A DNA stretch of 64,000 bases from a virus (lineage: Duplodnaviria > Caudoviricetes): IMG/VR virus record IMGVR_UViG_3300050491_000011. One strand, given 5' to 3'. The number at the start of each line of letters is the position of its first letter. Within the stretch, counting starts at the first letter, position 1. A program made the translations under genes and the position numbers. Under the pieces are notes generated by a model that had not been told where the DNA came from, ran no database searches, and was given only the letters and a program-made list of their open reading frames with translations. This document shows, piece by piece, positions 57,590-57,721 of this stretch.

Positions 57590-57721
57590 CCCTTGGTCAG
57601 CCGCTGGGGCTGGGCAGCTATCTGTTCGATACGGTACGTAAGCGCTTTAGGCAGCTGGCCATAGGCCGCTTACGTTCGTCGTTCAGAAGTGTCGAGAGTT
57701 CAACTCTCTCACTCGGGGCCA
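57590..57721 (+). ncRNA. tRNA-like RNA with T-loop plus 8-bp stem module replacing the anticodon loop
   Basis: T arm GAGAG-TTCAACT-CTCTC, CCA end; inner CTG-TTCGATA-CGG and CGTAAGCG/CGCTTACG. Confidence 0.6.

What the first reader, a model, noticed from the sequence alone, without database searches (positions are those of the whole stretch)
57590..57721. Third family member with inner T-loop and 8-bp capped stem
Seen: outer T arm and CCA, short D-like hairpin GCC-GCTGG-GGC, stem TGGGC/GTTCA, inner CTG-TTCGATA-CGG T-loop, then CGTAAGCG/CGCTTACG capped by GGCC-ATA-GGCC. The acceptor has an internal loop. Inference: a more diverged double-elbow variant.
Basis: partly seen in the sequence, partly recalled or inferred. 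Interest (0 to 1): 0.7.

Follow-up and report, generated by a model that had tools for sequence, protein, structure and literature searches.

The report
Phage tRNA-shaped RNA with long rod

Summary
Window 57590-57721 (+) is a single-copy RNA gene in the tRNA array of an uncultured phiKZ-like jumbo phage. I found homologues in four phage lineages (8 distinct sequences).

**Fold.** All share one fold: an 8-pair acceptor helix with a conserved pyrimidine-pyrimidine mismatch and a G.U pair, encoded CCA, a 5-bp D hairpin whose loop ends in GG, a canonical T arm, and a long irregular helix in place of the anticodon arm. On the fitted alignment, 96.6% of pair cells are standard pairs and 19 pairs change on both sides. 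Controls with partners slid by 1-3 columns give about 40%.

The sequence features listed are all present. Two are not the conserved structure:
- The inner "T-loop" (CTG-TTCGATA-CGG) exists only in the window's own lineage.
- The stem TGGGC/GTTCA is displaced by GGCA/TGTC, which shows a compensatory change.

**Invariant core.** What stays invariant is CGATACG ... CGTCGTT. These pair inside the rod at a near-constant distance from the tRNA-like body, while the distal hairpin varies freely.

**Reading.** It is a non-decoding, tRNA-scaffolded stable RNA whose core is a recognition site. No Rfam, ARAGORN or literature match was found. The nearest analogue is T4 species 1 RNA.

**Earlier notes.** The scan had noted sibling units in this same genome, none on other DNA.

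The parts
57590..57721 (+). Whole RNA gene (132 nt), tRNA-like body with a rod in place of the anticodon arm
   Evidence: CM R1/R2 matches cover exactly this range (161.7 and 147.8 bits). There is one copy per genome. Homologues occur in 4 lineages.
57590..57597 (+). Acceptor helix, 5' strand (CCCTTGGT). Position 1 pairs with G129, a -1:73-type pair. T5 is the mismatch partner.
   Evidence: Seven pairs, 100% of cells paired. 4:126 is T.G, T-A or C-G; 8:122 is T-A or C-G; G6.T124 is invariant.
57598..57612 (+). D arm: 5-bp stem CAGCC/GGCTG with loop GCTGG ending in GG
   Evidence: Three of the 5 pairs change on both sides: 9:23 C-G to T-A, 10:22 A-T to G-C, 13:19 C-G to G-C. The loop ends in GG in all 8 sequences.
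57613..57624 (+). Lower rod, 5' strand (GGCA, CT, TCTG with single-base bulges)
   Evidence: Pairs with 57684-57693. 91.9% of cells are paired and 5 pairs change on both sides. A27-T101 becomes G-C in G001. The register near the junction is least certain in lineages C and D.
57627..57633 (+). Invariant core, 5' half: CGATACG
   Evidence: Identical in all 8 sequences. It and CGTCGTT are the longest invariant runs in the RNA. Predicted pairs C38-G92, G39-C91, A40-T90, C43-G89 and G44-C88, with T41 A42 bulged; pair probability 0.82-1.0.
57622..57634 (+).
   Evidence: Fails in lineages B, C and D. Pair probability 0.0.
57636..57675 (+). Distal hairpin: 9-bp stem ACGTAAGCG/CGCTTACGT (57636-57644 with 57667-57675) plus a variable tip (57645-57666, GGC-AGCTG-GCC)
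   Evidence: All 9 stem pairs vary: 8 on both sides across lineages, and the closing pair only between A-T and G.T. Length ranges from 7 bp with a 7-nt loop (lineage D) to 9 bp with a 22-nt tip (lineage A).
57677..57683 (+). Invariant core, 3' half: CGTCGTT
   Evidence: Identical in all 8 sequences.
57684..57693 (+). Lower rod, 3' strand (CAGA, AG, TGTC), abutting the T stem with no variable loop
57694..57710 (+). T arm GAGAG-TTCAACT-CTCTC
   Evidence: 100% paired. 106:120 is A-T or G-C. The loop fits the T-loop consensus in all lineages.
57711..57721 (+). Acceptor 3' strand ACTCGGGG, followed by encoded CCA
   Evidence: GGGCCA is invariant.
57986..58004 (+). Intrinsic terminator that closes the tRNA array
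   Evidence: In lineages C and D the homologous terminator follows unit 3 directly.

Best explanation
57590-57721 encodes a roughly 132-nt stable non-coding RNA, transcribed within the phage's polycistronic tRNA array.

Top half (tRNA-like):
- An acceptor/T-arm minihelix with genome-encoded CCA.
- A canonical T loop.
- A D hairpin whose terminal GG can dock on the T loop.
This half gives it the handles for RNase P 5' cleavage and 3' trimming to CCA, and tRNA-like stability.

Bottom half: the anticodon arm is replaced by a long irregular helix, so the RNA cannot decode. In that helix an invariant element sits at a nearly fixed distance from the tRNA-like body. The element is CGAUACG paired with CGUCG(UU), with a UA bulge. 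The hairpin beyond it is free to vary.

Mechanism I commit to: a natural 'tRNA-scaffolded' RNA. A protein partner, from phage or host, reads the invariant core together with the peculiar acceptor helix (conserved Y x Y mismatch next to a G.U pair), much as a synthetase reads acceptor plus anticodon.

Shown: the fold, its conservation, the lack of an anticodon loop, the invariant core and its spacing.
Inferred: processing, stability, and the protein-binding role.
For: Homologues:
- They lie upstream of the same 171-aa gene in four lineages.

Fold:
- Independent MFE folds of lineages B, C and D, and of two lineage-A relatives, give the same cloverleaf with a rod.
- RNAalifold gives the same fold on a plain MAFFT alignment and on the CM-fitted alignment.
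- 96.6% of 348 pair cells are standard pairs and 19 pairs change on both sides, against about 40% and 1-4 pairs when partners are slid.
- Small-scale compensatory changes occur between close relatives. G001 has A27-U101 to G-C and A51-U82 to G-C. L019 and L022 show A-U to G.U changes.

Invariant core and spacing:
- CGATACG and CGTCGTT are invariant, while the adjacent rod segments are only about 30-70% identical between lineages.
- Spacing from the body is 13-14 nt on the 5' side and 10-12 nt on the 3' side in all lineages, whereas the distal hairpin varies from about 23 to 42 nt.

Context:
- No ORF of 60 aa or more overlaps it.
- A terminator closes the array.
- Engineered RNAs inserted in place of a tRNA anticodon stem are expressed and accumulate in E. 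coli; this is the tRNA-scaffold method (PMC3753655).
Against: - No expression, end-mapping or binding data.
- Only four lineages were found, so independent events are few, and two of the alignments were fitted to the model.
- The invariant core cannot be tested by covariation. Two pairing registers fit it: CGA..CG/CG.UCG or ACGAU/GUCGU.
- The rod near the four-way junction is weaker in lineages C and D.
- No partner protein is identified. The phage lacks Ro60/TROVE, CCA-adding enzyme and RtcB genes.
Confidence: 0.55

Rival explanations
1. Double-elbow tRNA mimic. The inner CTG-TTCGATA-CGG forms a second T-loop elbow, followed by a capped acceptor-like stem, as in units 1 and 2.
For: - In lineage A the loop fits the T-loop consensus.
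- By my own count from the printed sequences, 17 of 23 bases around it match unit 2 of the same genome.
- Unit 3 lies 8 nt after unit 2 and follows it again in lineage D.
Against: - The loop is 6 nt (ACGATA) in lineage B and 5 nt (CGATA) in lineages C and D, with the stem broken.
- There is no GG strand to dock on it.
- Nearest-neighbour energy is -30.7 kcal/mol against -52.5 for the rod, and pair probability is 0.0.
- The G001 compensatory change supports GGCA/UGUC, not UGGGC/GUUCA.
- Unit 2 keeps its inner T arm in the same lineages.
- Model R2 does not find units 1, 2 or 4.
Confidence: 0.08
2. Decoy or sponge. The structure is as described, but the role is to soak up a host tRNA-directed defence enzyme or toxin, or another tRNA-end-binding enzyme, through its acceptor/CCA end and elbow.
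For: - The acceptor end, elbow and CCA are strongly conserved (GGGCCA invariant).
- It cannot decode.
- It lies in an array rich in other anticodon-less tRNA mimics.
- From general knowledge, phage tRNAs are proposed to counter tRNA-targeting defences.
Against: - A pure acceptor-end decoy does not explain an invariant core about 13 layers down the rod.
- No defence target is identified.
- Nothing was tested.
Confidence: 0.2
3. Decaying tRNA pseudogene, or a mere processing spacer at the end of the tRNA transcript, with no function of its own.
For: - Phage tRNA arrays do hold degenerate copies.
- It is the last element before the terminator in lineages C and D.
Against: - It is kept in four lineages whose flanking protein has diverged to about 41% identity or less.
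- Many compensatory changes are present, along with two invariant 7-mers.
- The spacers around it are not alignable even between the closest relatives.
Confidence: 0.07
4. An intron-containing tRNA that becomes a decoding tRNA after the rod is removed.
For: A relative carries a true insertion with an endonuclease-like ORF in the anticodon loop of tRNA-Tyr in the same array.
Against: - Removing the rod leaves no 7-nt anticodon loop.
- The rod is about 80 nt with no ORF and no group I features.
- ARAGORN and Rfam find no tRNA here.
Confidence: 0.02

Closest known systems
Bacteriophage T4 species 1 RNA (rnaC; also species 2, rnaD)
   Same: - A stable RNA of about 139 nt encoded in the phage tRNA cluster and made from the same precursor.
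- It is the last gene before the terminator.
- It has a canonical T arm (CCGGG-UUCGAAU-CCCGG), an acceptor-like closing helix and long hairpins in place of the tRNA core.
- Its function is still unknown.
(PMC2330249, PMC3014915; fold)
   Different: - No detectable sequence or CM similarity: R1 over the T4 locus gave no match.
- By eye, the T4 RNA as annotated has no D hairpin with GG and no encoded CCA, and it carries two long hairpins rather than one rod.
YrlA, the tRNA-like bacterial and phage Y RNA (Rfam RF02553)
   Same: A non-decoding RNA that combines tRNA-like T-arm and D-arm elements with a long helix.
   Different: - The topology is inverted. In YrlA the ends lie in the long helix and the acceptor-like stem is capped. 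Here the ends are the acceptor with CCA and the long helix is capped.
- No RF02553 match overlaps 57590-57721, even at E <= 10.
- There is no Ro60/TROVE gene in the phage.
Sibling 'double-elbow' units 1 and 2 of the same array (window 56691-56866 and 57456-57581)
   Same: - Same array and strand.
- A tRNA body with the anticodon loop replaced.
- A paired -1:73 position.
- Adjacency to unit 2 is conserved.
   Different: - Units 1 and 2 keep an inner T arm, with a D arm or GG strand. Unit 3 does not.
- The outer bodies are unrelated in sequence.
- Model R2 does not detect them.
Engineered tRNA scaffolds for recombinant RNA (Ponchon and Dardel; PMC3753655)
   Same: The architecture is the same: acceptor, D and T arms are kept, and the anticodon stem is extended by a foreign helix. 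By my recollection of the method, this yields processed, nuclease-resistant RNA in bacteria.
   Different: That system is artificial. Here the design is natural, and the acceptor helix carries a conserved mismatch and G.U pair that the scaffolds lack.
tmRNA tRNA-like domain
   Same: Acceptor plus T arm with CCA, and a long helix leaving the tRNA-like part.
   Different: - By inspection, no G3.U70, no mRNA-like reading frame and no pseudoknots.
- ARAGORN calls no tmRNA.
- The only tmRNA-model match in the region lies elsewhere, at 10 bits.

Membership tests
tRNA (Rfam RF00005; ARAGORN) | Cloverleaf with a 5-bp anticodon stem and a 7-nt anticodon loop | tested here: not met
   No ARAGORN call. 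No RF00005 match overlaps 57590-57721 at E <= 10. The consensus fold has a long rod and no anticodon loop.
tRNA (Rfam RF00005; ARAGORN) | Acceptor/T-arm minihelix, T-loop consensus, D-loop GG, 3' CCA | tested here: met
   T loop TTCAACT/TTCGATC/TTCAAAT/TTCGACT, D loop ending in GG, and GGGCCA invariant.
tRNA (Rfam RF00005; ARAGORN) | Core linkers and tertiary bases (U8, N9, A14, R15, variable loop) | tested here: not met
   The consensus has zero or one unpaired base between the four helices and no variable loop.
Double-elbow tRNA mimics (units 1 and 2 of this array) | A conserved inner T arm (second elbow) within the replaced anticodon arm | tested here: not met
   Only lineage A has a T-loop-like sequence. 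It is broken in lineages B, C and D. Unit 2 keeps its inner T arm in the same lineages.
Double-elbow tRNA mimics (units 1 and 2 of this array) | An inner D arm or GG-bearing strand to dock on the inner T loop | tested here: not met
   The 3' strand after the capped stem is (T/C)CGTCGTT..., without GG, in all lineages.
Double-elbow tRNA mimics (units 1 and 2 of this array) | Capped 7-9 bp stem after the inner T arm | tested here: met
   A 9-bp stem at 57636-57644 with 57667-57675, covarying.
YrlA (RF02553) | Match to the family covariance model; RNA ends located in the Ro-binding helix | tested here: not met
   No RF02553 match over the finding at E <= 10. The ends are in the acceptor helix.
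YrlA (RF02553) | Ro60/Rsr partner encoded nearby or in the genome | tested here: not met
   PF05731 (TROVE) is absent from G000 and from the complete relative G001, while the control genomes matched.
T4 species 1 RNA (rnaC) | Sequence or structure homology to T4 rnaC | tested here: not met
   R1 over the T4 tRNA region gave no match at E <= 10.
T4 species 1 RNA (rnaC) | Stable processed RNA from the tRNA precursor | not testable with these tools
The phage is uncultured.
tmRNA | tRNA-like domain with G3.U70 plus a tag reading frame | tested here: not met
   ARAGORN finds no tmRNA. By inspection of the fold, the G.U pair lies at 5:68 by tRNA numbering and there is no ORF in the rod.

The most novel reading that the evidence does not exclude
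The RNA is a dedicated, possibly aminoacylated or otherwise end-modified, tRNA mimic. A specific phage or host protein reads it through two sites: the mismatch/G.U-marked acceptor helix and the invariant CGAUACG/CGUCGUU core, which takes the place of an anticodon. That would make it a new class of adaptor or decoy RNA, used by nucleus-forming jumbo phages to manipulate translation or to defuse tRNA-directed immunity.
Probability: 0.2. Interest if true: 0.8.

Novelty: new variant of a known kind. Interest (0 to 1): 0.55.

Why it matters
Phage tRNA clusters have been known since T4 to hold stable RNAs of unknown function. This one gives a clean, covariation-backed example in jumbo phages, with a clear separation between a tRNA-like handle and an invariant internal element held at fixed spacing. 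That separation makes the question of what such RNAs bind directly testable, by core mutants and pull-downs.

It also shows that the array of anticodon-less tRNA mimics in this phage is not one family. There are at least two designs: a second elbow, and a rod with a conserved core. It also corrects the structural model for this unit.

Tried and rejected
DNA similarity to cultured phages:
- blastn and megablast of the array matched only ordinary tRNAs and the alginate lyase gene.

Pattern scans of IMG/VR:
- The exact inner motif, the T-loop plus GTACG, the T arm plus acceptor and the invariant core plus CCA returned only lineages A, B and C.

Other relatives of the flanking gene:
- Flanking-protein relatives among cultured phages (201phi2-1, Noxifer, AH06, Viktualia) carry no unit 3. 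R2 found nothing in their whole records or in the fetched loci around the gene. In 201phi2-1 and Viktualia an ordinary tRNA-Leu sits in that place.
- In more distant metagenomic relatives of the flanking gene I saw no tRNA array next to the gene. L036-L039 were scanned with R2. L040-L043 were judged from the gene tables only.

Searches for a partner or a name:
- Pfam and PDB searches of the flanking 171-aa protein gave only weak AAA-type hints.
- TROVE, CCA-adding enzyme and RtcB are absent from the phage.

Readings considered and dropped:
- Ala-type identity. The G.U pair is at 5:68, not 3:70.
- Sec-like 8/5 fold. There is no discriminator base if the acceptor is 8 bp, and no long variable arm.
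- Intron-bearing tRNA.

Full report
**Observation**

It lies on the + strand in an ORF-free tRNA array. No ORF of 60 aa or more falls between 56976 and 58043. The array runs from about 55800 to an intrinsic terminator at 57986-58004. ARAGORN and Rfam recognise only three ordinary tRNAs in the window: Asn, Ser and Asp. A permissive Rfam scan of 55500-59500 gave no match over the finding. On its own the sequence folds far better than shuffles (z = -4.0, 0 of 200).

**Source and relatives**

- The window belongs to a 188-kb IMG/VR record of an uncultured phiKZ-like jumbo phage. A large structural protein is about 35% identical to those of cultured chimalliviruses.
- DNA searches against cultured phages found nothing but ordinary tRNAs.
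- I reached relatives through a conserved virion protein and through the 171-aa gene just downstream of the array (67/92, 93). This gave homologues of the finding in four lineages:
  - **A:** the window; L019; and G001, a complete 254-kb genome.
  - **B:** L010, L021, L022 and L025.
  - **C:** L023, L024 and L026-L028.
  - **D:** L034 and L035.
- That is eight distinct sequences.
- The flanking protein is about 68% identical between A and B and about 42% between A and C. It is more distant again for D (profile E-value 3.7e-34, against 1.5e-70 for the lineage-C representative).
- There is one copy per genome.

**Structure**

MFE folds of five of the six lineage-A and lineage-B sequences, and of lineage D, independently give the same picture. 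The window's own sequence and lineage C share its helices but pair the 5' end differently. The shared elements are:
- An acceptor helix of 4 + 3 pairs around a mismatch.
- A D hairpin.
- A long irregular helix.
- A T arm that abuts both neighbouring helices.

RNAalifold returns this fold from a plain MAFFT alignment and from the model-fitted alignment.

On the fitted alignment of the eight sequences:

| Measure | Named structure | Partners slid 1-3 columns |
|---|---|---|
| Pair cells that are standard pairs | 96.6% of 348 | 39-45% |
| Pairs changed on both sides | 19 of 45 | 1-4 |

This alignment was fitted to the model and the lineages are few. The most telling evidence is therefore the set of individual events:
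- Between the window and G001: A27-U101 to G-C and A51-U82 to G-C.
- In L019 and L022: A-U to G.U changes, and G.U to A-U.
- Between lineages: wholesale replacement of the 9-bp stem, as CGUAAGCG/CGCUUACG, GUGCAGAA/UUCUGCAU, GGAAAG/CUUUCC and UAUGGA/UCCAUG.
- Double changes in the acceptor helix (8:122 U-A to C-G), the D stem (9:23, 10:22, 13:19) and the T stem (106:120).

Features conserved in every lineage:
- A pyrimidine-pyrimidine mismatch at 5:125 (U x C; C x U in lineage D).
- G6.U124.
- A pairable -1:73-type position (C-G; U.G in lineage C).
- GG at the end of the D loop.
- The T-loop consensus.
- GGGCCA.

- **The stem TGGGC/GTTCA.** The G001 compensatory pair supports GGCA/UGUC next to the T stem instead.
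- **The inner T-loop hairpin CTG-TTCGATA-CGG.**
  - It exists only in lineage A.
  - The loop is ACGATA in lineage B and CGATA in lineages C and D, and the stem does not pair there.
  - In the window's own sequence the hairpin has pair probability 0.0.
This counts nearest-neighbour energy only, with no tertiary terms.
  - With the more distant lineages C and D lacking it, the T-loop look is most simply derived in lineage A.
- **Contrast with unit 2.** The neighbouring unit 2 keeps a true inner T arm with a covarying stem in all four lineages. This is why I do not file unit 3 as a double-elbow RNA.
- **Model test.** A covariance model of unit 3 detects no other unit of the array.

**The invariant core**

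- The longest invariant runs in the whole RNA are CGATACG (57627-57633) and CGTCGTT (57677-57683).
- They face each other in the rod. Two pairing registers are possible.
- The rod segments on either side are only about 30-70% identical between lineages.
- The core lies 13-14 nt (5' side) and 10-12 nt (3' side) from the tRNA-like body in all lineages. The hairpin beyond it ranges from 7 bp with a 7-nt loop to 9 bp with a 22-nt tip.
- That pattern is a fixed-distance invariant element with a free distal cap. It is what a recognition site looks like.

**Explanation**

I read the RNA as a natural counterpart of the engineered tRNA scaffold (PMC3753655).
- The tRNA-like top provides processing and stability.
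- The rod carries the functional element.
- The conserved irregularity of the acceptor helix suggests that the acceptor end is read too.

The fold and its conservation are shown. Processing, stability and protein binding are inferred.

Function-level rivals are a decoy for tRNA-directed enzymes, a functionless relic, and an intron-bearing tRNA. The last two fit the data poorly. The phage encodes no Ro60/TROVE protein, CCA-adding enzyme or RtcB.

**Comparison with known RNAs**

- **T4 species 1 RNA (rnaC).** This is the nearest analogue. It is a stable 139-nt RNA at the end of the T4 tRNA cluster, with a T arm, a closing acceptor-like helix and long hairpins, and its role is still unknown (PMC2330249, PMC3014915). 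Model R1 shows no homology to it.
- **YrlA.** It has the inverse topology and does not match.
- **Literature.** Full-text searches for tRNA-like RNAs of jumbo or phiKZ-like phages returned nothing that describes this RNA.
- **Placement.** I class it as a new variant of a known kind: phage tRNA-cluster stable RNAs and tRNA mimics.

**Limits**

- Only four lineages are available.
- The junction-proximal rod is less certain in lineages C and D.
- The core pairing is not testable by covariation.

**Earlier notes of this scan**

Earlier notes covered sibling units in the same genome and gave the lead that relatives exist. None concerned other DNA.

Noticed in passing
L010:9158-9812 (- strand); compare L003:2791-2876: In relative L010 the array's tRNA-Tyr(GTA) gene is split in its anticodon loop by an insert of about 660 nt. 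The insert carries a 201-aa ORF with a NUMOD3 motif and an endonuclease-I-like region. This looks like a homing-endonuclease-bearing intron or insertion. G001 has the intact tRNA-Tyr.
   Followed up: partly
window 57300-57420, against L003:2791-2876: Where G001, L019 and L022 have an ordinary tRNA-Tyr with encoded CCA, the window has a different, ARAGORN-negative tRNA-like element with a Leu-type D arm and a long extra region. The array's content turns over between phages that are about 88% identical.
   Followed up: no
L027:5590-7170 and L034:1955-2085: The lineage C and D arrays hold further composite tRNA-like units. They include clear homologues of units 1 and 2 with inner T arms whose stems covary. 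In lineage D, unit 2 is followed 7 nt later by unit 3 and then the terminator.
   Followed up: partly
window 58043-58558; L030:3839-4498; L033:3764-4423: The 171-aa gene after the array encodes a small protein with a Walker-A-like motif (APRQCGKS) and only weak AAA-type Pfam hints. In the cultured phages 201phi2-1 (gp446) and Viktualia its homologue is directly preceded by a tRNA-Leu gene, so the tRNA(-like)-then-gene synteny is old.
   Followed up: partly
window 56010-56684: A PL7 alginate lyase gene (PF08787, E = 1.4e-41) sits inside the tRNA array and is kept there in lineages A and B.
   Followed up: no
window 57722-57985: About 260 nt of conserved, structured, ORF-free sequence lies between unit 3 and the terminator in lineages A and B. 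It includes a T-arm-bearing element near 57866-57972. It is absent in lineages C and D, where the terminator follows unit 3 directly.
   Followed up: no
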